From: Escherichia phage vB_EcoM_G17
Sequence record: MK327931.1
Length of the DNA: 64,000 nucleotides
Strand: one strand, 5' to 3'
In this document: in pieces, positions 6,089-64,000 of the stretch
Position numbering within the stretch: the stretch's first letter is position 1
How the letters are laid out: every line of letters starts with the position of its first letter
Position numbers and translations under genes: made by a program
Notes under the pieces: generated by a model
The model's input: only the letters and a program-made list of their open reading frames with translations
Told to the model about the DNA's origin: nothing
The model's database searches: none

Positions 6089-6778
6089 TTAATCCATTTT
6101 AAGCTTGTTTAGACAGAATGAAATCTGGATTGCTTCACGTGCTGCATCAAACAGTGGGTGATGTAACTCCAACCCATTAATCCCACACGTATTTGCATAT
6201 GTGATAAATTTATCCAACTGTACCGAAACGATTTCATCCATTTCAATACGAGCTTCTTCATTCAATAAACGTTTCAATGTGCGTGCATTTTCAGGTGCAT
6301 CATACTTCCACAACTCACCAGCGTTCATTAGTTTTAAATGGTTTGCTTGTAAAATACTACAATCGAAGTTACATCCGTTGCCCCAGACTGAATGAGGAAC
6401 TTCTTCACCATAATCATTGTAACGTAATTCTTTCCAGAAATCAACAATACTACTGTATGCAAAAAATCGTCGTGATTGACCATTCGGTCCATACAGTTCA
6501 GGTGCTTTGAGTTTCATAGTACTGGCAACTTCAGAATATGCATTAGAGTATTCTTTCTGACATGTATTCATCCAAAAATCCATTGCACCTGCGTCTGATT
6601 TTAAACCAGCAGCAACTTGATCCTGGTATGGTAATTTAATATATAAGAACTGACGAATGTCATTTTCAGGTTTACTTGGAACTACTACTGCTGCGTAATT
6701 TGGGATAATAATATCATAACCGGAAAGTTCAGGTGTTCCAAGAGCTTCAATATCAACACTAATATGACGACGTTTCAT
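6089..6778 (-). CDS. dexA: exonuclease A-like DEDDh 3'-5' exonuclease
   Basis: motifs DIEALG, NFDCSIL and HHPLFDAARE match the DnaQ-type exo motifs I-III and resemble T4 DexA. Confidence 0.65.
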   Translation of the reverse strand: MKRRHISVDIEALGTPELSGYDIIIPNYAAVVVPSKPENDIRQFLYIKLPYQDQVAAGLKSDAGAMDFWMNTCQKEYSNAYSEVASTMKLKAPELYGPNGQSRRFFAYSSIVDFWKELRYNDYGEEVPHSVWGNGCNFDCSILQANHLKLMNAGELWKYDAPENARTLKRLLNEEARIEMDEIVSVQLDKFITYANTCGINGLELHHPLFDAAREAIQISFCLNKLKMD

Positions 6779-6802
6779 AAGTTAGTTCCTTATCTGTACA
6801 TT

Positions 6803-6845
6803 AAAAAGAGTGCGTTTTCAATAAGATTATATTAAAAACGCACTC
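6803..6845 (-). terminator. rho-independent terminator
   Basis: 11-bp inverted repeat gagtgcgtttt/aaaacgcactc followed on the minus strand by a T-run. Confidence 0.55.
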
Positions 6846-6857
6846 ATATGTCAACTA

Positions 6858-7994
6858 TTACTTGTTAGCTTTTTCGGCAATTTCACGAAGAGTGTCTTCC
6901 AGTTCATAGGAAAGTTGTGCAATTTCCTGTTTAGCACGTTCACGTTCCAATTTGCCTTTTTTCTCTTCTTCAATAACTGCTTCAATACTGTCAATCATCG
7001 TTTTATGTACATTACGCAAGGTTTTAATATCCACAATACCACGGTTGTTTGCCTTTGCTGCGTCCAACATATTTGCTGCAACCATTTTAGAGTTAGTTTC
7101 CAAAAGACGGTTTGTCTCATTATCAATTAGATTGCCTAGTTCATTATCCTTACGTTGACGCTCGGAAATTAACTGTTCAGCCAATTGAGACTTCCATGCT
7201 GGAATAACAACAGATTTTAAATCTTCAAACTTAGAAACAGTGTTCAAGTTTACTTTTTTCATACTCATCAAACGTGGACCACTTAGCTCGCACATCATGA
7301 TAAGACGACGAATCTTATCTTCTTGTTTAGAAAGTGCTTCACAAATCATCTTTTGCTCTTGAATAGCAAAAGAGTCTACATTTTTGTCTGCTTGCATTTC
7401 TAATAATAATGCATCTTGTGTTTTAGTTACTTCTTCTAAACCAACTAATGTATCACGTAATTCAAACAAATATTCTTTGTTTTCATTATATGCTTTATCA
7501 AGCCATTCACATTCTCCGTGCTGGCGATTAATACCAGTTTGAAGAGTTTTCATAATTTCGTCAATTTGCTCTTTACTGTTTTTGTACTGATCACCTACTT
7601 TCTGTTGAGCATTAACAAAGAATTTCTTAATACGACCAACAATTGATTTATCTTCTTGAAGACTGTCAATATCAACTGCACGAGTCAACGTAAGAATTGT
7701 GGTGATTGATTTACCAAACTCGGTATTGTCATCCGTTACATTAACTTTAGACATAATTTCATCAGCCAAACGCCCAACAGCAGCACCAGCAGTTGTACCA
7801 ACAGTATTGATGTTTTGAACTGTTAGAGACATAGTATTTCCCTTAACATCTTTCAGTACTGGTAGTGATTTTGTAGTTTGGTTAAAAATATCACTTGCAT
7901 CAATTGTATGACCTTTAGACGCAGTTTTAGTAGTGCGTTTTGCTGATTTAGCTGCGGTGGATGCTTTTTTAGGATTGATTTCTTTCTCGGACAT
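6858..7994 (-). CDS. coiled-coil protein, possibly TelA-like (toxic anion resistance family)
   Basis: 378-aa ORF, largely helical; C-terminal NNRGIVDIKTL block recalled as resembling a conserved TelA/YceH motif (from memory, unverified). Confidence 0.4.
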   Translation of the reverse strand: MSEKEINPKKASTAAKSAKRTTKTASKGHTIDASDIFNQTTKSLPVLKDVKGNTMSLTVQNINTVGTTAGAAVGRLADEIMSKVNVTDDNTEFGKSITTILTLTRAVDIDSLQEDKSIVGRIKKFFVNAQQKVGDQYKNSKEQIDEIMKTLQTGINRQHGECEWLDKAYNENKEYLFELRDTLVGLEEVTKTQDALLLEMQADKNVDSFAIQEQKMICEALSKQEDKIRRLIMMCELSGPRLMSMKKVNLNTVSKFEDLKSVVIPAWKSQLAEQLISERQRKDNELGNLIDNETNRLLETNSKMVAANMLDAAKANNRGIVDIKTLRNVHKTMIDSIEAVIEEEKKGKLERERAKQEIAQLSYELEDTLREIAEKANK

Positions 7995-13387: not shown

Positions 13388-13714
13388 TTAACGACCAAAG
13401 GTTAGCATTTTAGTTCGTGGATCTTCATCTGAAACTAAACTAACTGCGGCTGGATAATCAACCAAGTTTAATTCAATACCATCAACTTCAATAGTTCTTG
13501 ACCATCGACCATGATCAATTAAAATCCATTGACCTTCTTTAATATCAGTAATGTCTTCGCCTACAGAATAAACTTTTGCCCAGCGAGAACGAATACCTCT
13601 AATTTTACCGTCATCGTTTGTTAAAACGATACCACCTGCTGTTTTGCGTTCACCATGTTCCAGTTCAGTTACCAGTACTTTACCTTTACATGCAGTCATT
13701 ACTTTATTAGTCAT
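13388..13714 (-). CDS. GroES-like co-chaperonin (Cpn10 family)
   Basis: KVLVTELEHGERKTAGGIVL ... VYSVGED ... EGQWILIDHG matches the Cpn10 pattern. Confidence 0.65.
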   Translation of the reverse strand: MTNKVMTACKGKVLVTELEHGERKTAGGIVLTNDDGKIRGIRSRWAKVYSVGEDITDIKEGQWILIDHGRWSRTIEVDGIELNLVDYPAAVSLVSDEDPRTKMLTFGR

Positions 13715-14112: not shown

Positions 14113-14145
14113 ATTATATCACATGTTTTTCTACCATTTCAAAAA
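14113..14145 (-). promoter_or_regulatory. early promoter with extended -10 (TGTGATATAAT)
   Basis: minus-strand TGnTATAAT at 14113-14123, upstream of the start at 14067. Confidence 0.45.
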
Positions 14146-14649
14146 TTCGTTAACATCAAGTTCATACTTCAATGAATCTACCATATGTAGTCCAATCAAA
14201 AACAAACAGTATGATGCAACAGAGCTTCCACGACCTAGACCCCAAAAGATCTCATTTTCTTCCATATAATCAACAAGCCATATCATACATCTTAGTAGCT
14301 TTGTCATATTATAATATTCATATAAATCAAGTTCATACTCAACACGTTTTCGTGCTTCATCGGATGTGCATTTTTGTAAGAAAAAGTCACGCAGATTTAT
14401 ATTGTCGTATACTGGATCATATCGCCACAGTTCATGATTTTTATCATGCTCAATTGTATAATCCAGCATACGTTGTTCTAAGCCAAATTTTTTACAGTTA
14501 TCATTGAATTTCAACCTTTCAGGTTCATCAATTTCCTGCAATTGTAAGTACTGGATATCTGCACCGCAATTGATTGCATAAACAACTGCGTTAAGATTAC
14601 ATTTCACATCACCATTGGGACTTATAAATCTGTTTCCTTGTACTTTCAT
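14131..14649 (-). CDS. small protein homologous to the region of DNA polymerase III alpha (DnaE) just before the catalytic aspartates
   Basis: C-terminal FWGLGRGSSVASYCLFLIGLHMVDSLKYELDVNEFL aligns with E. coli DnaE [35 protein letters not shown]; preceding YELDLYEYYNMTKLL matches ELQVINQMGFPGYFL; the ORF stops before the PDFDVDF catalytic motif. Confidence 0.5.
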   Translation of the reverse strand: MKVQGNRFISPNGDVKCNLNAVVYAINCGADIQYLQLQEIDEPERLKFNDNCKKFGLEQRMLDYTIEHDKNHELWRYDPVYDNINLRDFFLQKCTSDEARKRVEYELDLYEYYNMTKLLRCMIWLVDYMEENEIFWGLGRGSSVASYCLFLIGLHMVDSLKYELDVNEFLKW

Positions 14650-43613: not shown

Positions 43614-44584
43614 CGTATCAAAATTTTAGGTACTGTTAGGAAAGGGTCATACACTTTTCGGACAGCAGCATAGTCATATGGTACTGGAACAATTTTGGGA
43701 TGAATAGCAACCACCAAACGTAACCACATATAATTTCCTTTAAAATTAAATGCTTGTATTCCGTCAAGTTCTTTTGGAAAACCTTCTGAATCAATTCCAT
43801 TTTCAATATAATCCTTTCCATCTAATTTAATAATAAACCATTTATAGTTTTCATTATCATTAGGTACGTTGTTACACAAGCACCCTTGTAGCTGTATTCT
43901 ACCAATAAATTTATCAAAATAGATTGCAATACTACTTAATCCATCTACTAATCCAAACTGCATTTGTGCTGGTAGTGGAGTTGATGCGAGAATATCATAT
44001 TCACCAATCATACCATTTCCAATTGGTTCATGATATAAACGCTTTATAGTTGTCCATGCTGGATTTTTATTAACTGATATTTCAGTACTGGGGACAAATA
44101 CAGGTGCTGCTTGGTCTGAAATTATTAGCTCTGCTGATGCCTCAAAGTTCATCCCTGTATATAGATATTGTGTTGGTTCTATAAGTGAACCATCCATTGT
44201 TACTTTAGTAATGCTCCATCTATATTTTGAACCAGGACTGGTATCTTGAATAACTCCTGCTGGAACAATACATCCATAATATACTTTCTTTTTATTTCCT
44301 AATGTTTGTCTTGCTTGTCCACTTTCTGATAACCAACTGGGTTCTTGTTTTTCTAATACAACATCAAATAGTTTAGTATTATTTCGTGCATCAAAAATCA
44401 TAAATGTAAGATATTCATTATCTTTCAATAAAGTATATTTTCCATCAGCGTTGTGAACAGTAAAAGATAAATTATTATTTGCCCCTCTATATATAGTTAG
44501 TTTTTCATTGCTATATGGCATATTAAAATTGCCCAATGATACTTCCTGATTATAAGGGTACATAAACACGCCGTGATGAGCCAT
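43607..44584 (-). CDS. late protein, putative virion structural protein
   Basis: start moved to the internal ATG at 44584 (GGAAGGA Shine-Dalgarno); palindromic late-promoter-like box upstream. Confidence 0.45.
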   Translation of the reverse strand: MAHHGVFMYPYNQEVSLGNFNMPYSNEKLTIYRGANNNLSFTVHNADGKYTLLKDNEYLTFMIFDARNNTKLFDVVLEKQEPSWLSESGQARQTLGNKKKVYYGCIVPAGVIQDTSPGSKYRWSITKVTMDGSLIEPTQYLYTGMNFEASAELIISDQAAPVFVPSTEISVNKNPAWTTIKRLYHEPIGNGMIGEYDILASTPLPAQMQFGLVDGLSSIAIYFDKFIGRIQLQGCLCNNVPNDNENYKWFIIKLDGKDYIENGIDSEGFPKELDGIQAFNFKGNYMWLRLVVAIHPKIVPVPYDYAAVRKVYDPFLTVPKILIRR

Positions 44585-44608
44585 AGTTTTTCCTTCCATA
44601 AATAATAG

Positions 44609-44622
44609 GTATAAATTTATAC
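44609..44622. promoter_or_regulatory. palindromic late-promoter-like element GTATAAATTTATAC (TATAAATT on both strands)
   Basis: perfect 14-nt palindrome between divergent genes; 7/8 match to TATAAATA in each direction. Confidence 0.4.
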
Positions 44623-44641
44623 TAATATTTATGGAACTAAT

Positions 44642-44995
44642 ATGAATCAATATAACACTATTCCACCATTCATTACTGTAATCCAGTATGATGGTAAAAC
44701 GTTTGTTGGTATCATCAAAATCAAAAGCAAACAGTATACAACTCTTTACTGTTTCGATGATATGGATGATTCAATGCAAGACGAATTGTTAGGTATAGCA
44801 CACGATTGGTGGTGGCAAAGTAATAGAACCATTCCAGTTTGTCTATTCTTTCAAGAAGAGATGGAGAAATTTGAACCGTACACACAGAGATTCGATACAC
44901 CGTCGGTGAATTTCGTATGTGGTCCAGTAGTTTCTTTAAGCAATTTGCCACAGAAACGCATCAAGCGTCGTAATGTGGCTCTTAAGAAGAAGTAA
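44642..44995 (+). CDS. hypothetical protein (plus strand)
   Basis: 117-aa ORF downstream of the palindromic box. Confidence 0.45.
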   Translation: MNQYNTIPPFITVIQYDGKTFVGIIKIKSKQYTTLYCFDDMDDSMQDELLGIAHDWWWQSNRTIPVCLFFQEEMEKFEPYTQRFDTPSVNFVCGPVVSLSNLPQKRIKRRNVALKKK

Positions 44996-45620
44996 GATGT
45001 TCAACTAAAGCATTTAGTTGTACAACAATCATTAAGCTATATGCGTAAGCATGTGGCTTTTTGAAATATCGTAATTTATTTCCTGCTTGGTCAGTGCCTA
45101 TAGTACTATAATCCCATATGGTAGCTTTAACTTCGTCCCATGTGTTCATACTTTGGCACTGCCTTTTTCCTGGGCGAATCATTGCAATAAACATTGCTAG
45201 TTCGTCTATAGATTTAGGCTTCCATACATTTAATAAAGTTACATGTTTTTTAATTTGCGATAGATGTTCTACAATTTCGGGTTCTAACAATAGATCCCAA
45301 TTTGGTTCCTGATTCATTAGTTCTTTTAAATGCTCTCTATCACGAACATACATGTAAGCTGACTGTGAAAGAATATCAACTTTTTGATACCCTAACCTTT
45401 CAGCTTCTTTATATTGTATACTTGCCAATCCAGTGATTGGATCAATAGGTATATTATCAAAATGAACACCACTATTATGGGGGATTAAACCATCCTCCGT
45501 AATTTTTTCAGTACTTCGCACACATGGAAGTTTAGCGATTACGCTTTTACTATCCTTGAAGTCAATGTCAATATCAGTTCGGGCTTTTCTATAATGTTTA
45601 GAATCGGTCGAATCCTGCAT
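44982..45620 (-). CDS. small protein resembling the fingers region of DNA polymerase III alpha (DnaE)
   Basis: ELAMFIAMIRPGK (compare DMIALVALFRPGP), KKPHAYAYSLMIVVQ (compare NKSHSAAYALVSYQ) and YQKVDIL (compare KFDFLGL) in DnaE order. Confidence 0.45.
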   Translation of the reverse strand: MQDSTDSKHYRKARTDIDIDFKDSKSVIAKLPCVRSTEKITEDGLIPHNSGVHFDNIPIDPITGLASIQYKEAERLGYQKVDILSQSAYMYVRDREHLKELMNQEPNWDLLLEPEIVEHLSQIKKHVTLLNVWKPKSIDELAMFIAMIRPGKRQCQSMNTWDEVKATIWDYSTIGTDQAGNKLRYFKKPHAYAYSLMIVVQLNALVEHLTSS

Positions 45621-45927
45621 TTTTTATTTGCTCCTGTAACTGTTTAACTGTATTAGTCAAAGTTGATATTTGATTCTCTAATAATCTACAATTTTGTTTT
45701 GTCTTTGCCAATTCTTGACTTAAACTGAAAAAGCGTTCTTCGTGTCTTTCTACCAAAGAAATAATTTTTTCAATACGAGCAGGATCATGAACTTGAAATG
45801 TTTTACCATCTAAAGTTATTTCAGTAATAGATCCTTGTCTAAGTAGAGATATTTGTTTTGATTTTTGTTCTTTAGGTACAGGTACATACCCTTCTGGTAT
45901 TTTATTATATATACTTTTTCCATTCAT
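45598..45927 (-). CDS. hypothetical protein
   Basis: 109-aa ORF. Confidence 0.45.
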   Translation of the reverse strand: MNGKSIYNKIPEGYVPVPKEQKSKQISLLRQGSITEITLDGKTFQVHDPARIEKIISLVERHEERFFSLSQELAKTKQNCRLLENQISTLTNTVKQLQEQIKNAGFDRF

Positions 45928-46634
45928 AATCCTGCCTCACATAGCATAATCTTAATTTCATCACAATCCTTTTTGTATTTTATAGTTTTGATTTCAAAAT
46001 AACTTGGATCGATGTATTTAAGTATATATTCAATTTCTGAGTTTGATAGTTTTTTAAAAAACTTATTAGTACTTTTTTTAGGAGCAAGCCAGATAATCCA
46101 AGGTGAAATTTTACCACTCTCAATCCATGCAATTGCACGGGCAGAACTTACATTTTCAAAGAAAGTATTCCATTGTACATTCAAATTTTCAGCCCATTCA
46201 ACCAGTGAGATAACACTTCTTGCAATTGCTTCTTTTGGGTGCTCGGCACGAATTGTTTTTAATATCCATTCATCTTTTGCTTTATATGTACTCCATTCCG
46301 TGATTGGTTTGTTATTGATAATCAAGTACTTTACAAACTCGTCCACATTAATAATATCTCTATTATTCAAATAGTATTCGGCAAAACTATAAAAATCATT
46401 AAAGTACTTTGACTTTATAAAAGCAATAAAAGGCTCTACGCCTTTTTTAAATGGGAACTTATTCAATTCCATAAATTGCATATATATACGAAAAGCCTCC
46501 ATCATCTGGCGGCTTTGGCGGTCTTCGTATCGGTCACGTTTTATACATTTATGTGTGTTTACAGTTTCTTCACGTTTAAATTCACGATCACAAAATCTAC
46601 AGGTATATACTTTATTACTTGATTTCTTTGCCAT
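45924..46634 (-). CDS. hypothetical protein with N-terminal C2H2-like zinc finger
   Basis: CRFCDREF ... HKC near the N-terminus; 236 aa. Confidence 0.5.
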   Translation of the reverse strand: MAKKSSNKVYTCRFCDREFKREETVNTHKCIKRDRYEDRQSRQMMEAFRIYMQFMELNKFPFKKGVEPFIAFIKSKYFNDFYSFAEYYLNNRDIINVDEFVKYLIINNKPITEWSTYKAKDEWILKTIRAEHPKEAIARSVISLVEWAENLNVQWNTFFENVSSARAIAWIESGKISPWIIWLAPKKSTNKFFKKLSNSEIEYILKYIDPSYFEIKTIKYKKDCDEIKIMLCEAGL

Positions 46635-47460
46635 ATTTTTTACATTCTTCTTTAAACAATTTCATCATAGATTTCTTTTCATTATCTTGAAAACCATTAT
46701 TGTCAAGAAATGTCTCAAATGTTTTTTTATCATACTGCAATAGAACAATTTTGTACTCATCTTCATTCATTTGAGTAGATATAGTATCAGGTTGTGAGCT
46801 TTTAATTAACTCAAATAATTCGTTATTTGCCTTTTTGAAATTCTTAGAAAAGTTTAACCAGTTACGTGGCATTTCTTGTCCACCAATCATATCATGGACT
46901 GAACACATAAGCTGATATACTAATTCTGGATGTTCTTTCATATCCCAAAATCCATCATTAACCATATCATTTAGCATAATAAGTTGGTATTTGACAACTT
47001 CAGTATCTACTAATGAAACAATTTCTGAACCTGATACGCCAAATTCGACCATTGAGGATATTAATTTTTGTGCGTCATCTTTTGATTGGACTGCAAATTT
47101 AATACGCCAATCATAATCACTATGACAGTACTTAGTTACTGATGAAACATTTGTCCCTGAAGACTTTAATTCAGTAACTAGTTCAGTCAGTGCTTCTTTA
47201 CCACCAGATTTCCATTTTCCAAATACACTTTCAACTTTACTACTAGGGTAGGTTACTTGTAACGAATCATCTAAAGAGCTTACCCATCGCAAAACAGTAT
47301 ATGGAGTAAACTCTTTTCGTTCTTTTTCGGTCATGTCATTATAGTACTTATAATCAGCACGGTCAATGTGTTTTAGAAATTCAGCAATAGAAAAAGAATG
47401 CTGTGTTGGTTTTTCATCATCATCGACCGACTTATTTTTAATATCACTGAAATCAAACAC
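46615..47460 (-). CDS. hypothetical protein
   Basis: 281-aa ORF. Confidence 0.5.
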   Translation of the reverse strand: MFDFSDIKNKSVDDDEKPTQHSFSIAEFLKHIDRADYKYYNDMTEKERKEFTPYTVLRWVSSLDDSLQVTYPSSKVESVFGKWKSGGKEALTELVTELKSSGTNVSSVTKYCHSDYDWRIKFAVQSKDDAQKLISSMVEFGVSGSEIVSLVDTEVVKYQLIMLNDMVNDGFWDMKEHPELVYQLMCSVHDMIGGQEMPRNWLNFSKNFKKANNELFELIKSSQPDTISTQMNEDEYKIVLLQYDKKTFETFLDNNGFQDNEKKSMMKLFKEECKKYGKEIK

Positions 47461-47464
47461 TATT

Positions 47465-47962
47465 TTATACTCCTAGATACAAATCTTGAATTTTTTCGTT
47501 TTCATCTGCAAAGTACACACATGGTGGATTTTCACCACTATGTAGTGGGACGCATAGTAAATTCTTTTTAGGTAACATTGGTATCTGCCACTTTGTAGTT
47601 AATGCAAATACACGTAGTACTTTGACTGGTTCAAACTTAGGATACATTGAACGGATAGGATTGTAAACAAAAGCTTTTGGTTCTTTCATGTTAAGAATGT
47701 TTTCAATTGTACACATCTCAACCATACCAGTTTCTTCATCACCTAACATAATTTGCCATCCTAGAGGCACTTGAATAATCTTTTCACCAATTTGAAGATC
47801 AGCACTAATACTATTAAATGATACGGTGTTTAGAATATGTCTAAAATAAAAATCAGATTCACCATTTGGGCTTAGATCCAAAACACAATACATTTCTTCA
47901 GGGATATGTTCTGTTACTAAATCCATGTCAAAAGAATTATTTTCAGGTGTTAATACGTTCAT
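47465..47962 (-). CDS. hypothetical protein
   Basis: 165-aa ORF. Confidence 0.5.
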   Translation of the reverse strand: MNVLTPENNSFDMDLVTEHIPEEMYCVLDLSPNGESDFYFRHILNTVSFNSISADLQIGEKIIQVPLGWQIMLGDEETGMVEMCTIENILNMKEPKAFVYNPIRSMYPKFEPVKVLRVFALTTKWQIPMLPKKNLLCVPLHSGENPPCVYFADENEKIQDLYLGV

Positions 47963-49955: not shown

Positions 49956-50774
49956 TTAATTAGTTCGAGTATTATATTCGTACTCAAATGTATATACTAA
50001 ATCTTTATCACAGTTAGGGTTACTTGCATCTAAAATGTCACTATTAGTAATCATCCATTCAATGTAATTCAATGGAACTGTACTCATTGGCTCACCTTTG
50101 TGTTTACCAAATGGCATGAATTGATAACGCATTGGTGTGTTGCAGAAAGTTACAATTTGCTCACCAATATCACCATTAGGTTCGATATGTCCACGTTCGA
50201 TTGCAATTTCAACTAATTTGATTAGAACCTGATAACACATAAACACATCGTCTTTTGCTGCGTGTGCATTAACAGGTCGATGAACATCACGATAACATCC
50301 AAACTTATACCACAAATAACTTAGAGTTAAGTTTTTAAATTCAATATCTTCTGCGAACATTTTCTTAGCAAGACGAAGGGTACAAATCCATTTATTTTCA
50401 TCAAGTAAGTACTGTGAAATTGAGTTACGATATTTATATTCGTTATCTACCATCATTCTACGGTCAAATTGTACATTATGACCAACAAAATACTTACGGC
50501 ATCCCATAAGTGCATCAATGTTATCTAAATCATCTTTATACCCAACACAATTAGCTACATCCTCAGTACTGATAAAGTGCACAGCAGATGCCTCTGGTGG
50601 AATATCTTTCAAGGGTTTGTATCTCAATGTATAGTTATCAATAGTATCAATGTTTTCATGTGAAGTATGTGGATACGAGATACTAAATTCAATAATATCA
50701 TCTTCACTCTCAACCCCAGTAGTTTCAGTATCTAGAACTGCTACATTTGATAAAAACTCATTTAATTTTGTCAT
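49956..50774 (-). CDS. DEDDh 3'-5' exonuclease (DnaQ/RNase T-like)
   Basis: LDTETTG (exo I), GHNVQFDRRM (exo II), HAAKDDVFMC (exo III). Confidence 0.7.
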   Translation of the reverse strand: MTKLNEFLSNVAVLDTETTGVESEDDIIEFSISYPHTSHENIDTIDNYTLRYKPLKDIPPEASAVHFISTEDVANCVGYKDDLDNIDALMGCRKYFVGHNVQFDRRMMVDNEYKYRNSISQYLLDENKWICTLRLAKKMFAEDIEFKNLTLSYLWYKFGCYRDVHRPVNAHAAKDDVFMCYQVLIKLVEIAIERGHIEPNGDIGEQIVTFCNTPMRYQFMPFGKHKGEPMSTVPLNYIEWMITNSDILDASNPNCDKDLVYTFEYEYNTRTN

Positions 50775-53650: not shown

Positions 53651-58908
<5,258 letters not shown>

Positions 58909-60420: not shown

Positions 60421-61157
60421 TATCTATATGAACGAAATCCTTCAGGTAAACCAGGTAGCTTGTCTAATCCTTCGTTCGCACTCACTAGCTTTGTGTCGTA
60501 ATCATCACTGAAATCATCCGTAGCAAGTTTACGCCCCAAGTCTCTAACAAAGTTATCTATGATTTCTTCTTCATCATTACCTGGATGACCTTCGGCTTTC
60601 AACTTTTTCCAGAAATATTCGTTATAGTCAAAAACAAACTCAACTTCATTTGTTTCAGGATCAAGAACCACATCCAAATCAATCCAAGGCTCTTTTCGAA
60701 GTGTATATATCTCCTTTGAATATTCACTTTGAGTGATTTCTTCATAACGATATGCAAATTCTATAGCCTTAAGCCTTTTTTCATCACCGTCTGGCATTAA
60801 CTCAATGATTTCCATATCATATTCTTTTTCAGTAATAGAACCAGTACTTAGTTTTGCATCAAGAACTTTAACATTATACTGTTCACGAGTAATTTTAGAA
60901 TATTTTAGTTCAACATCAAGTACAGTAATTAGATATTCCAAATCTCCAATTACGCTATATTTCTTTTTAATATCCAATTGGGCCAGTTCAACTTCATATG
61001 GAGTTAGATATGTCAATTCAGCAACTTTCATATCAGCTTCATAATCATCATTGTAGTAGTATGCTTTAGCTATCTCTTTTGCCTTTCCAGAAAGTCCCCA
61101 GTGAGCAGGGACCATCCAAAATGGAATAAATTTCTTTTTAGCCATTTTTCTTACCAA
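60420..61157 (-). CDS. hypothetical protein (in the late unit with the GroES-like gene)
   Basis: 245-aa ORF. Confidence 0.5.
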   Translation of the reverse strand: MVRKMAKKKFIPFWMVPAHWGLSGKAKEIAKAYYYNDDYEADMKVAELTYLTPYEVELAQLDIKKKYSVIGDLEYLITVLDVELKYSKITREQYNVKVLDAKLSTGSITEKEYDMEIIELMPDGDEKRLKAIEFAYRYEEITQSEYSKEIYTLRKEPWIDLDVVLDPETNEVEFVFDYNEYFWKKLKAEGHPGNDEEEIIDNFVRDLGRKLATDDFSDDYDTKLVSANEGLDKLPGLPEGFRSYR

Positions 61158-61437
61158 AAATCTCTTCGATTTTCATTACATAATATGTATCTTCACCACC
61201 ACCAAGATCTTCAGTCAGAGGTGTGTTCAAAGATGAACGACCAAACACAACCATATCACCTTCTTTAATATTATGTTCTGCAAGTTGTCCGTTCGGAAGA
61301 ATTTTACCTGGACCAACGGAAATTACCATCCCAATACATGGTGGTTCAACATTACCTAGAATAATACCACCAGTACTTTTATTCTGTGCTTCAATTTGTC
61401 GAACAAGAACGTAATCATTAATCATTTTAATTTTCAT
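61138..61437 (-). CDS. GroES-like co-chaperonin (gp31-like, Cpn10 family)
   Basis: MKIKMINDYVLVRQIEAQNKSTGGIIL ... GMVISVGPG ... EGDMVVFG; start taken at the internal ATG. Confidence 0.6.
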   Translation of the reverse strand: MKIKMINDYVLVRQIEAQNKSTGGIILGNVEPPCIGMVISVGPGKILPNGQLAEHNIKEGDMVVFGRSSLNTPLTEDLGGGEDTYYVMKIEEIFGKKNG

Positions 61438-61438
61438 A

Positions 61439-61645
61439 TTAGTAACCTCCAGTATTTGCAAACCATTTTCCACGGAAATAAAGATTAGCACCCTTATCAC
61501 CTGGAGTGAACACTTCCAACTTCATAGTTTTTTCACCATTACATTTAGGACAATCATGAGGTTCATCACGATTTGCAATTTTAACAATTTTTTCCATGCT
61601 ATGTTTGCATTCTTCTTTTTCACAACGATATGTATATAATGGCAT
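61439..61645 (-). CDS. FmdB-family zinc-ribbon protein
   Basis: MPLYTYRCEKEECKH ... CPKCNG pattern. Confidence 0.5.
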   Translation of the reverse strand: MPLYTYRCEKEECKHSMEKIVKIANRDEPHDCPKCNGEKTMKLEVFTPGDKGANLYFRGKWFANTGGY

Positions 61646-62992: not shown

Positions 62993-64000
62993 TTACCAAG
63001 TGAAGAATCCATTGTTTACTGACGCAGTACTTTTTTCATGAATACCAATATCCATATCCAAAATACCAAAAATATTCTCTAATTTTTTAGTTAGAACAAT
63101 CTCTTCCATTTTTTCAGTATCAAATGGTAGTTCCAAGAACCATTCTGGTAGATACTCAACACAGTCAATTGGATATCCAACAGCTTTAATTCCCATAGGA
63201 TTATCTTTTAAGTTACAGACAATTACTTTTGTTCCATCTGTTACTTCTGGAACAGATTTATCATCATAAACTTCACGTAGACGGTTCCATTGGATACCAG
63301 CAAGAACGTGACCAACTTTACACTTACCAGTTAGCTGATATTCAGCCTCTAAATTAGTGTAGTTTTTTACAGTTTTTGGTGAACCTTTTTCATGTACAGG
63401 CATATCCTTAAATACGTCCTTAAACTCACGTACACGCTGTTTTAGCTGCTGTTCACTCTCACCTACCAGTAATGCGATTAGAGTCTCTTCTAGGAAGTTC
63501 TGGATGTATTTTGGCGTGTCTGAGCGTTTAATTTCAAGACCCATCGCTTTGATTTCACCTGGTTTACCATCAATATCTTTACGGAACCCATCTTCCCAGT
63601 ACTTCAGAATTGCATAACGTTTTTTCTTCAAGAATAGGCCACGTGAACCAACCATCTCAAGGTCTGCACCAACAATCTTACCTTTTTCAATACCAGTGTT
63701 GAACATCTCATGCATAAATGATGGGAAAGATTCACCAACTTCTTCACCAATTTTAATATACATATCAACAATCTCTTCTTTAGATAGATTATATGGAATA
63801 CCTTGTTCTTTCAGATAATGCGTTACACTAAAGTAAACTGAGTCAGTATCACCATAAATTACTGAACCACCTTGGTGATTATATACACCAGTAGTAATCT
63901 CATTGATACGACTTGCCATATGTTTGGTCATAGAACGTCCAGTTAATGTTACGGATTGACCTAAACGTTTGTCAAAGAAACGAGAACCTTTGTTCAATAG
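62993..64000 (-). CDS. 43: DNA polymerase (family B, gp43-like), C-terminal part; gene continues beyond the window end
   Basis: Pol B motif C YGDTDS near the start of the fragment; frame open to position 64000. Confidence 0.85.
   Translation of the reverse strand, partial: LLNKGSRFFDKRLGQSVTLTGRSMTKHMASRINEITTGVYNHQGGSVIYGDTDSVYFSVTHYLKEQGIPYNLSKEEIVDMYIKIGEEVGESFPSFMHEMFNTGIEKGKIVGADLEMVGSRGLFLKKKRYAILKYWEDGFRKDIDGKPGEIKAMGLEIKRSDTPKYIQNFLEETLIALLVGESEQQLKQRVREFKDVFKDMPVHEKGSPKTVKNYTNLEAEYQLTGKCKVGHVLAGIQWNRLREVYDDKSVPEVTDGTKVIVCNLKDNPMGIKAVGYPIDCVEYLPEWFLELPFDTEKMEEIVLTKKLENIFGILDMDIGIHEKSTASVNNGFFTW

What the first reader, a model, noticed from the sequence alone, without database searches (positions are those of the whole stretch)
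44982..45620. Second DnaE-like fragment: fingers-region homolog encoded 30 kb from the first
This 212-aa ORF carries three blocks in DnaE order: YQKVDIL (KFDFLGL), ELAMFIAMIRPGK (DMIALVALFRPGP) and KKPHAYAYSLMIVVQ (NKSHSAAYALVSYQ). With ORF 14131-14649 it means two non-adjacent pieces of a Pol III alpha-like protein on the same strand, neither with the catalytic aspartates.
Basis: partly seen in the sequence, partly recalled or inferred. Interest (0 to 1): 0.75.

Follow-up and report, generated by a model that had tools for sequence, protein, structure and literature searches.

The report
Split mini DNA polymerase III, catalytic half

Summary
The window is an Asteriusvirus jumbo coliphage, 100% identical to slurp01 and about 99.8% to PBECO4. 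The 212-aa ORF at 44982-45620 (minus strand) is real. It is PBECO4 gp488 and PHROG 11778 ("DNA polymerase").

- **Motifs:** TDIDIDF aligns to E. coli PDFDVDF (D401/D403), and the "YQKVDIL" block itself holds the D555 equivalent. All three catalytic aspartates (D16, D18, D82) are therefore present, and they are invariant across the family.
- **Partner:** ORF 14131-14649 supplies the preceding half of the palm (GRGSS loop) and always ends at EFLK, where ORF2 takes over.
- **Missing parts:** the thumb, PHP domain, clamp-binding region and OB fold are absent.
- **Linkage:** the two genes co-occur in the same phage genera, and their neighbourhoods (primase/DnaB; clamp loader) are conserved in PA5oct-like phages. 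Natural single-chain fusions of 336-376 aa exist in metagenomes.
- **Prior work:** Iyer et al. 2021 already described this "minimal split Pol III alpha" of group 2.2 jumbo phages.

The finding is real, but its interpretation needs correcting, and activity is untested.

The parts
44982..45620 (-). ORF2 (212 aa; PBECO4 gp488). This is the C-terminal piece of the split minimal Pol III alpha: the second half of the Pol-beta-like palm, with the three catalytic aspartates, plus a reduced fingers domain.
   Evidence: - ORF listing.
- PHROG 11778 'DNA polymerase', E 2.1e-108.
- AF2 model, pLDDT 94.
- hhalign to DnaE.
45561..45575 (-). Codons for D16-I-D18-I-D20 (the DxDxD motif). This is the equivalent of E. 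coli DnaE D401-F-D403-V-D405, the two metal-binding aspartates.
   Evidence: - Sequence read directly.
- Invariant in 57 homologues.
- Aligned to PDIDIDF of M. tuberculosis DnaE1 and to PDFDVDF of E. coli.
- In the natural fusion P0304, the Pfam PF07733 match runs through this motif.
45375..45377 (-). Codon for D82 in YQKVDIL. This is the equivalent of E. coli D555 (KFDFLGL), the third catalytic aspartate.
   Evidence: - hhalign.
- E. coli motif position.
- Invariant column.
45165..45176 (-). Codons for R149-P150-G151-K152, the fingers motif equivalent to E. coli FRPGP (638-642).
   Evidence: - hhalign.
- R149, P150 and K152 are invariant.
- Pfam DNA_pol3_finger is hit weakly here. The score is below the gathering cut-off, and 24 of 57 family members hit it.
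45039..45062 (-). Codons for K187-K-P-H190-A-Y-A-Y194, the fingers motif equivalent to E. coli NKSHSAAY (757-764).
   Evidence: - hhalign alternative alignment, FKKPHAYAYSL to FNKSHSAAYAL.
- hmmsearch segment against M. tuberculosis DnaE1 773-787.
- H190 and Y194 are invariant.
14131..14649 (-). ORF1 (172 aa; PBECO4 gp449). This is the N-terminal piece: a phage-specific N-terminal region plus the first half of the palm, ending at EFLKW (equivalent to E. coli FERFLNP, 388-394).
   Evidence: - ORF listing.
- Pfam PF07733, E 1.9e-9, above the gathering cut-off.
- PHROG 11127.
- Profile hits to PDB DnaE chains at residues 320-393.
- hhalign, probability 86.6%.
- AF2 model, pLDDT 87.5.
14221..14235 (-). 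Codons for G139-R-G-S-S143, the nucleotide-triphosphate-binding GS loop of the Pol-beta-like fold. Equivalent to E. coli GRGSG (361-365).
   Evidence: - Invariant in 53 homologues.
- Aligned to GPGRGSGAGS of E. coli DnaE.

Best explanation
ORF 44982-45620 encodes the catalytic, C-terminal subunit of a two-subunit, minimal C-family (Pol III alpha-type) nucleotidyl transferase of a RaK2/121Q-like jumbo phage.

**Shown**
- ORF2 has the DnaE/PolC fold for the second half of the palm. This includes the beta-strand with DxD, an HxxGV strand, and the strand carrying the third Asp.
- It also has a cut-down fingers domain with the RPG and KxH..Y motifs.
- ORF1, 30 kb away, has the first half of the palm with the GRGSS triphosphate-binding loop. 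It stops exactly where ORF2 begins in DnaE coordinates.
- The thumb (E. coli ~430-508), the PHP domain, the HhH/clamp-binding region and the OB fold are absent.
- The two genes occur in the same phage genera, and fused single-chain relatives exist.

**Inferred**
- The two proteins assemble non-covalently, without an intein, so that an active site forms at their interface.
- The complex polymerises dNTPs on a primed template.
- It works as a second, accessory polymerase beside the phage's complete family-B polymerase.

My preferred role is short primer extension or gap filling coupled to priming. The reasons are that ORF2 lies two genes from the primase/DnaB pair, ORF1 lies near the clamp loader, and one fused relative is translationally coupled to a ColE2-Rep-type initiator primase.
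For: - **Identity of the phage and gene:**
- **Fold:**
- **Residue mapping:**
  - hhalign of the joined family against DnaE gives probability 97.3% and E 1.7e-11.
  - It aligns GRGSS to GRGSG, RTDIDIDF to SMPDFDVDF, PHNSGV to KHAGGV, YQKVDIL to LVKFDFL, and IRPG to FRPG.
  - It leaves an ~80-residue gap where the thumb would be. E. coli positions were read.
- **Purifying selection:**
  - D16, D18, D20, H48, G51, D82, R149, P150, K152, H190 and Y194 are invariant in 57 ORF2 homologues.
  - G-RGSS is invariant, and every ORF1 homologue ends at EFLK/EFLR.
  - 540 cluster representatives at 50% identity match, nearly all about 190-215 aa.
- **Functional linkage:**
  - ORF2 is found in 95 phage records. 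ORF1 is found in the same genera with matching counts: Escherichia 33/33, Pseudomonas 11/11, Salmonella 8/8, Erwinia 8/8, Xanthomonas 4/4, Yersinia 4/4.
  - Natural fusions P0304, P0390 and P0391 (375-376 aa, from independent assemblies) and P0370 (336 aa) carry ORF1-like then ORF2-like parts in DnaE order.
  - ORF1+ORF2 joined in silico aligns to P0304 in one HSP, 5-374 against 10-374, E 2e-49.
  - The Pfam PF07733 match on P0304 runs across the junction into DFDID.
- **Context:**
  - Neighbourhoods are conserved in Pseudomonas phage Paride. ORF2 lies between a helicase and primase/DnaB, and ORF1 lies beside the clamp loader. The neighbouring genes are homologous.
  - The start of P0370 overlaps the stop of a PF03090 (ColE2 Rep-type AEP initiator primase) gene.
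- **Main polymerase:** the phage has a full family-B polymerase of 1001 aa with exonuclease and polymerase domains.
- **Prior description:** Iyer et al. 2021, PMC7824862.
Against: - No biochemical or genetic data exist for any member. Three literature searches on the system found none.
Physical assembly therefore rests on the fusions and the co-occurrence.
- Sequence-only evidence for ORF2 is weak:
  - Pfam DNA_pol3_finger scores 13.5 bits against a 22-bit cut-off.
  - The profile search against PDB sequences gives E 1.1.
  - The assignment leans on the predicted structure and on profile-profile alignment.
- Loss of the thumb, HhH and OB domains removes most of DnaE's DNA-binding surface. Processive templated synthesis is therefore not assured.
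- The primer-extension role is inferred from gene neighbourhood only.
- In RsoM2USA the genes flanking the two pieces are not homologous to those in this window.
Confidence: 0.7

Rival explanations
1. The two ORFs are catalytically dead DnaE fragments that act on, or mimic part of, the host Pol III holoenzyme as a decoy or inhibitor.
For: - The pieces are small and lack the PHP, thumb, clamp-binding and tau-binding regions.
- Phages often encode inhibitors of host replication (general knowledge).
Against: - All three catalytic aspartates and the GS loop are present and invariant.
- The regions of DnaE that contact epsilon, beta and tau (PHP, beta-binding motif, C-terminal domain) are exactly the ones missing. 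There is nothing to act as a decoy with.
- The family occurs in phages of very different hosts (Pseudomonas, Ralstonia, Agrobacterium, Vibrio) with the same conserved active-site residues.
Confidence: 0.04
2. The module is an active Pol-beta-fold nucleotidyl transferase, but not a templated DNA polymerase. It could be a terminal transferase, a tailing enzyme, or a maker of a nucleotide signal or modified-base intermediate.
For: - The thumb and the duplex-binding HhH/OB elements are missing.
- The Pol-beta-like fold is used by many non-polymerase transferases (general knowledge).
- The phage already has a complete family-B replicase.
Against: - The fingers motifs are retained and invariant: RPG, and KxH..Y including the His aligned to E. 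coli H760. From my own knowledge, these position the incoming dNTP and template in C-family polymerases.
- The genes lie in replication modules next to primase, DnaB and the clamp loader.
- A fused relative is coupled to an initiator primase.
Confidence: 0.15
3. ORF2 works alone or with another partner. ORF1 is an independent protein, and their shared descent from DnaE is only history.
For: - ORF2 alone holds all three carboxylates and the fingers.
- The word-indexed search found more ORF2-like clusters than ORF1-like ones: 785 against 176.
- The gene distance varies from 4 kb to 182 kb, and the gene order differs between phages.
Against: - Genus-by-genus co-occurrence is near perfect.
- Four fusion proteins join the parts in DnaE order.
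- The split point is exact and conserved.
- In the Pol-beta fold the GS loop and its helix are part of the same active site (general knowledge).
- The difference in cluster counts can be explained by the poorly conserved N-terminal 95 residues of ORF1, which share few exact words with the query.
Confidence: 0.08
4. The ORFs are decaying pseudogene remnants of a once complete phage dnaE.
For: They are short, scattered pieces of a normally 1160-aa protein.
Against: - Both are intact ORFs of constant length across hundreds of cluster representatives, with invariant active-site residues down to about 40% identity.
- Synteny is conserved between phage families.
Confidence: 0.02

Closest known systems
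Minimal split DNA polymerase III alpha of group 2.2 jumbo phages (Iyer, Anantharaman, Krishnan, Burroughs & Aravind 2021, Viruses 13:63; PMC7824862)
   Same: This is the same thing.
- Two stand-alone proteins are encoded by distant genes.
- The N-terminal unit is the NTP-binding part. The C-terminal unit is the Mg2+- and template-binding part.
- It is found beside a family-B polymerase in RaK2/121Q-type phages, and no other Pol III domains are present.
   Different: Nothing of substance differs.
- the residue-level map (D16/D18/D82);
- the exact, conserved break point;
- the loss of the thumb;
- natural single-chain fusions, one of them next to a ColE2-Rep-type primase;
- the conserved primase/DnaB and clamp-loader neighbourhoods.
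Bacterial C-family replicative polymerases DnaE and PolC (E. coli DnaE, Taq DnaE 2hpi, G. kaustophilus PolC 3f2b)
   Same: - The Pol-beta-like palm has a GS loop, a DxD and a third Asp.
- The fingers motifs RPG and KSH..Y are shared.
- They are the best structural matches.
   Different: - The phage pair totals 384 aa, against 1160 aa in E. coli.
- It is split in the middle of the palm.
- It has no PHP domain, no thumb, no HhH/beta-binding region, no OB fold and no tau-binding C-terminus.
- The ORF2 profile did not pull full-length DnaE into its best 150 hits.
Cyanobacterial split dnaE joined by a split intein (Synechocystis DnaE-n/DnaE-c; my own knowledge, cf. PMC2677866 listed)
   Same: A Pol III alpha gene is broken into two genes far apart on the chromosome.
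   Different: - No intein is present here. ORF1 ends two residues after EFLK, and ORF2 has only 15 residues before the DxD. That leaves no room for the ~100-aa N-intein and ~35-aa C-intein halves.
- No Hint or intein Pfam hit was found.
- The break point is inside the palm, not the fingers.
- Assembly must therefore be non-covalent.
Natural single-chain mini Pol III proteins from metagenomes (P0304, P0390, P0391 of 375-376 aa; P0370 of 336 aa)
   Same: - They have the same two modules in the same order and nothing else.
- P0304 is 33% identical to ORF1+ORF2 over the full length.
- The same active-site residues are present.
   Different: - They are one polypeptide.
- P0370 lacks the ORF1 N-terminal region and reads DYDIE instead of DIDID.
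- P0370 sits on an 8-kb contig beside a ColE2-Rep-type primase gene, not in a known jumbo phage.
Bacillus subtilis DnaE (DnaE3) as the RNA-primer extender that hands over to PolC (my own knowledge; a functional analogy only)
   Same: It is a second C-family polymerase that works next to the main replicase and the primase.
   Different: - No activity data exist for the phage enzyme.
- The main phage replicase is family B, not PolC.
- The analogy rests on gene neighbourhood only.

Membership tests
C-family DNA polymerase catalytic core (DnaE/PolC) | Pol-beta-like palm with a G[GS] nucleotide-binding loop | tested here: met
   - The loop is on ORF1, not on the ORF of the finding.
- GRGSS is invariant.
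- It aligns to E. coli GRGSG, residues 361-365.
C-family DNA polymerase catalytic core (DnaE/PolC) | Three catalytic carboxylates (E. coli D401, D403, D555) | tested here: met
   ORF2 D16, D18 and D82 are invariant and align to D401, D403 and D555.
C-family DNA polymerase catalytic core (DnaE/PolC) | Fingers domain (Pfam DNA_pol3_finger, PF17657) | tested here: inconclusive
   - The motifs RPG and KxH..Y are present and invariant, and the fold matches.
- The Pfam score is 13.5 bits against a 22-bit cut-off. Only 24 of 57 members hit at E<=1.
- The domain is about 127 aa, against about 350 aa in E. coli.
C-family DNA polymerase catalytic core (DnaE/PolC) | N-terminal PHP domain | tested here: not met
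   - Neither piece nor the fusions give a PHP hit. E. coli DnaE gives 2.2e-42.
- Iyer et al. report no other Pol III domains in these genomes.
- I scanned only this window, by tblastn, not the whole genome.
C-family DNA polymerase catalytic core (DnaE/PolC) | Thumb domain inserted in the palm, and C-terminal HhH/beta-clamp-binding and OB-fold domains | tested here: not met
   - The alignment leaves E. coli ~430-508 unmatched.
- ORF2 ends at the equivalent of E. coli residue ~770-790.
- No HHH_6, OB or C-terminal domain hits were found.
C-family DNA polymerase catalytic core (DnaE/PolC) | Template-directed DNA polymerase activity | not testable with these tools
   No experimental report was found.
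Split minimal Pol III alpha of group 2.2 jumbo phages (Iyer et al. 2021) | Two stand-alone proteins from distant genes: an N-terminal NTP-binding unit and a C-terminal Mg2+/template-binding unit | tested here: met
   - ORF1 (172 aa) and ORF2 (212 aa) lie 30.3 kb apart on the same strand.
- Their residue content matches the description.
Split minimal Pol III alpha of group 2.2 jumbo phages (Iyer et al. 2021) | Occurs in RaK2/121Q-type myophages together with a classic family-B polymerase | tested here: met
   - The window is an Asteriusvirus.
- PBECO4 gp512 is a 1001-aa polymerase with DNA_pol_B_exo1 and DNA_pol_B domains.
- Homologues occur in RaK2, PA5oct, Atu_ph07, XacN1 and RsoM2USA.
Intein-split DnaE (cyanobacterial type) | Split-intein halves flanking the break point | tested here: not met
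   - ORF1 ends at ...EFLKW, and ORF2 starts 15 residues before the DxD.
- No intein or Hint family hit was found.

The most novel reading that the evidence does not exclude
The 384-aa two-piece module, and its 336-376-aa single-chain relatives, may be a self-sufficient DNA polymerase. That would make it the smallest C-family polymerase known. Its proposed job is to extend primers laid down by a dedicated primase, both in jumbo phages (DnaG-type primase/DnaB next to ORF2) and in small ColE2-like replicons (a ColE2-Rep-type AEP primase translationally coupled to P0370). In those replicons it would replace the host Pol I step. On this reading the mini enzyme is a portable 'primer-extension cassette', and possibly a model of the ancestral Pol III core, as Iyer et al. 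suggested.
Probability: 0.3. Interest if true: 0.65.

Novelty: already known. Interest (0 to 1): 0.32.

Why it matters
If the pair is active, it would be the smallest known C-family polymerase, and one whose active site is built from two polypeptides. That would define the minimal catalytic core of the bacterial replicase fold and give a natural system for studying palm-domain assembly. It would also raise the question of why jumbo phages that already have a full family-B replicase keep a second polymerase.

For this scan, the main value is corrective. The fragment is not a dead fingers remnant but the catalytic half, and the system has been in the literature since 2021. It is also partly annotated in RefSeq and PHROGs as 'DNA polymerase'.

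Tried and rejected
- **Single-sequence searches of PDB sequences** gave nothing useful for either ORF.
- **The ORF2 profile against PDB sequences** gave only a sub-threshold, though collinear, hit to M. tuberculosis DnaE1 (E 1.1).
- **hhalign of the ORF2 family against E. coli DnaE alone** was weak (E 0.022; short pieces only). The alignment became convincing only after I joined the ORF1 and ORF2 family alignments with the natural fusions and used a two-sequence DnaE template. In that run the last block (KKPHAYAY) was misplaced. I rely for that block.
- **The promoter/terminator scan** around ORF2 was no better than shuffles.
- **Expression timing:** the PA5oct omics paper gives no gene-level timing for these genes and has no supplement held.
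- **Other papers** contain nothing on this system: the CRISPRi-ART paper and the 2026 survey of bacterial polymerases.
- **RsoM2USA neighbours** of the two pieces are not homologous to those in the window.
- **P0404 and the Bacillus phage PK-3 hit** turned out to be ordinary DnaE, one truncated and one full length. They are not further mini or split forms.
- **Intein-mediated joining** was considered and rejected, because the termini leave no room and no Hint hit was found.
- **A third piece in the window** was sought with tblastn and not found, at limited sensitivity.
- **A model of the ORF1-ORF2 complex** could not be made.
Full report
**1. Where the window comes from**

Window 44000-47500 is 100% identical to Escherichia phage slurp01 and 99.8% identical to PBECO4. 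Both are Asteriusvirus jumbo myophages of about 348 kb. In the PBECO4 RefSeq record, the ORF of the finding is gp488 and the companion ORF is gp449. Both are labelled 'DNA polymerase'.

**2. The observation**

- ORF 44982-45620 is on the minus strand. It is 212 aa long and starts at the first possible ATG, with a GGAG 10 nt upstream.
I located the E. coli motifs on the real sequence: PDFDVDF at 400-406, KFDFLGL at 553-559, FRPGP at 638-642 and NKSHS at 757-761.
- hhalign pairs YQKVDIL with LVKFDFL, and ...IRPG with ...FRPG. It pairs FKKPHAYAYSL with FNKSHSAAYAL.
- ORF 14131-14649 (172 aa, same strand, 30.3 kb away) matches Pfam DNA_pol3_alpha at 1.9e-9, above the curated cut-off.
- Each ORF fills a phage family of its own, both called 'DNA polymerase': PHROG 11778 and PHROG 11127.

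**3. Is the homology real?**

Sequence evidence alone is thin for ORF2:
- Pfam DNA_pol3_finger scores 13.5 bits against a cut-off of 22.
- Single-sequence and profile searches against PDB sequences are not significant.

Structure settles the question:
- With a 57-sequence alignment, AlphaFold2 gives pLDDT 94.1.

**4. The catalytic aspartates are there**

- In 57 ORF2 homologues down to about 41% identity, the invariant columns include D16, D18, D20, H48, G51, D82, R149, P150, K152, H190 and Y194.
- The N-terminal TDIDIDF matches PDIDIDF of M. tuberculosis DnaE1.
- I joined the ORF1 and ORF2 family alignments, added four natural fusion proteins, and compared the result with DnaE (E. coli plus Bacillus phage PK-3). 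hhalign then gives one alignment of 344 columns, with probability 97.3% and E 1.7e-11. It pairs the following:

| Phage pieces | E. coli DnaE |
|---|---|
| GLGRGSSVAS...EFLKW | GPGRGSGAGS...ERFLNP |
| RTDIDIDF | SMPDFDVDF |
| PHNSGV | KHAGGV |
| YQKVDIL | LVKFDFL |
| IRPG | FRPG |

- About 80 residues of E. coli (~430-508, the thumb) have no counterpart.
- D401, D403 and D555 are the established catalytic residues of E. coli DnaE (my own knowledge of Pritchard & McHenry 1999 and Lamers et al. 2006).
The claim 'neither with the catalytic aspartates' is wrong.

**5. How the two pieces fit**

- In 53 ORF1 homologues, G-RGSS is invariant and every sequence ends at EFLK/EFLR plus a few residues.
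- This aligns to E. coli 320-394, ending at FERFLNP.
- ORF2 starts 15 residues before the DxD (E. coli 401).
- The break therefore lies inside the Pol-beta-like palm, between the GS-loop helix and the DxD strand. It is at the same place in the whole family.
- There is no room for intein halves, and no intein hit was found.

**6. Do they work together?**

*Co-occurrence.* ORF2 homologues occur in 95 phage records, whichever family member is used as the query. ORF1 homologues occur in the same genera with matching counts: Escherichia 33/33, Pseudomonas 11/11, Salmonella 8/8, Erwinia 8/8, Xanthomonas 4/4 and Yersinia 4/4. They also hit Streptomyces and Bacillus phages, which have ordinary full-length DnaE.

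*Fusions.* A full HMMER scan of 1.84 billion representatives with the ORF2 profile found 540 matches. Nearly all are 180-220 aa, but two are longer.
- P0304 (375 aa) matches the ORF1 profile at residues 7-189 (E 1.4e-31) and the ORF2 profile at 190-370.
- P0370 (336 aa) matches the ORF1 profile at 36-113 and the ORF2 profile at 108-318.
- P0304 has two further relatives from independent assemblies, P0390 and P0391 (376 aa), so it is not an assembly accident.
- ORF1+ORF2 joined in silico aligns to P0304 in one HSP, 5-374 against 10-374, at 33% identity and E 2e-49.
- Pfam DNA_pol3_alpha runs across the junction of P0304, covering residues 97-207 and so including DFDID at 191-195.
- The fusions hit exactly the two loci in the window and nothing else.

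These 'Rosetta stone' fusions are the best available evidence that the two gene products make one enzyme. They also show that no third piece is needed.

**7. Context**

- ORF2 is the last gene of a tightly packed leftward array that begins with a DEAD/DEAH helicase gene. It is followed by a convergent small ORF, a virion protein gene, a gene annotated as primase (which had no Pfam hit) and a DnaB-like helicase gene.
- ORF1 lies three small genes upstream of the clamp loader.
- The same neighbourhoods occur in Pseudomonas phage Paride, a PA5oct-like phage whose ORF2 is 41% identical. The flanking genes are homologous: E 7e-24, 7e-39 and 1e-16.
- The distance between the two genes varies widely:

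| Phage | Distance |
|---|---|
| RsoM2USA (opposite order) | 4.2 kb |
| This phage | 30 kb |
| RaK2 | 33 kb |
| PA5oct type | 43 kb |
| Atu_ph07 | 182 kb |

- The split is therefore old, and close linkage is not needed.
- The phage also encodes a complete family-B polymerase (1001 aa, exonuclease plus polymerase domains) and a stand-alone DnaQ/RNase T-type exonuclease.
- The fused P0370 sits on an 8-kb contig, with its start overlapping the stop of a gene for a PF03090 protein. PF03090 is the ColE2 Rep-type initiator primase family of the AEP superfamily.

**8. Mechanism**

*Shown:* the fold, the active-site residues, the complementary break point, the co-occurrence, the fusions and the replication-gene context.

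*Inferred:* the two proteins assemble non-covalently. ORF1 supplies the triphosphate-binding GS loop. ORF2 supplies the metal-binding carboxylates and the nucleotide- and template-binding fingers. The complex adds dNTPs to a primer.

The module has lost the thumb, HhH and OB domains, and the phage has a full family-B replicase. I therefore think an accessory role is most likely: short primer extension or gap filling coupled to the primase. Iyer et al. proposed cooperation with the family-B enzyme in synthesis of one strand or in repair. None of this has been tested.

**9. Comparison with what is known, and novelty**

- Iyer et al. 2021 (PMC7824862) describe exactly this. [quoted passage not shown]
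- RefSeq, PHROGs and several GenBank records already label the genes as DNA polymerase or Pol III alpha.
- Genome papers on Asteriusvirus phages list a 'DNA polymerase III DnaE' or 'two DNA polymerases' without further analysis.
- I found no experimental work.
- The finding is therefore already known.

**10. Verdict**

The feature is real and the homology is confirmed. The system is already published as a computational prediction. Interest is moderate to low for discovery purposes, but the enzyme remains an attractive, untested biochemical target.

Noticed in passing
window 49956-50774 (-): A stand-alone 272-aa DnaQ/RNase T-type 3'-5' exonuclease (PBECO4 gp495, labelled 'DNA polymerase exonuclease subunit'; Pfam RNase_T 6.7e-15). 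It lies about 4.3 kb upstream of ORF2 in the same transcription direction. It could proofread for the mini Pol III, which has no PHP domain, but this was not tested.
   Followed up: partly
window 62994-64000 (-), cut by the window end: The 3' part of the phage's family-B DNA polymerase gene (PBECO4 gp512). The full protein is 1001 aa, with DNA_pol_B_exo1 and DNA_pol_B domains. The phage therefore has a complete main replicase besides the mini Pol III.
   Followed up: yes
L007 1516-4181 (JGI metagenome contig, 7992 bp): The fused mini Pol III P0370 (336 aa) starts 4 nt before the stop of a 552-aa gene for a PF03090 'Replicase' protein (ColE2 Rep-type AEP initiator primase) with an HTH. This looks like a primase-polymerase pair on a small element. 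The same contig has a PG_binding_1 protein, a DUF4238 protein and a methyltransferase.
   Followed up: partly
window 44642-44995 (+): A small convergent ORF (117 aa, no Pfam hit) overlaps the 3' end of ORF2 by 14 nt. The same arrangement and a homologous protein (35% identity, E 7e-24) exist in Pseudomonas phage Paride. It is therefore a real conserved gene of unknown function, tied to the end of ORF2.
   Followed up: partly
window 45924-46634 (-): A 236-aa protein with an N-terminal CxxC...HxC zinc-finger-like motif lies one gene upstream of ORF2 (the 109-aa ORF 45598-45927 lies between them). It is homologous to the gene directly upstream of ORF2 in Paride (31% identity, E 7e-39). It has no Pfam hit. 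It may be a replication accessory protein.
   Followed up: partly
window 14131-14649 (ORF1), PHROG hits: ORF1 also weakly matches the C-terminal ends of two ~460-position PHROG profiles: 13169 at positions 339-409 of 463, and 7513 at 363-438 of 461. It also matches the start of a 782-position profile, 11165 at positions 37-111. This hints that DnaE genes of other phages may be broken at or near the same point in the palm.
   Followed up: no
Agrobacterium phage Atu_ph07 (MF403008.1) 58325-58864 and 240850-241167; Ralstonia phage RsoM2USA (L006) 1795-2376 and 6565-7086: The two pieces are 182 kb apart in Atu_ph07. In RsoM2USA they are only 4.2 kb apart, and the N-piece comes first in the direction of transcription, the opposite of the order in this window.
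   Followed up: partly
window 13388-13714 (-) and about 61139-61474 (-): Two GroES-like co-chaperonin genes are annotated in this stretch of the PBECO4 record. One is labelled 'head morphogenesis' and lies two genes downstream of ORF1. The other is labelled 'co-chaperonin GroES'.
   Followed up: no
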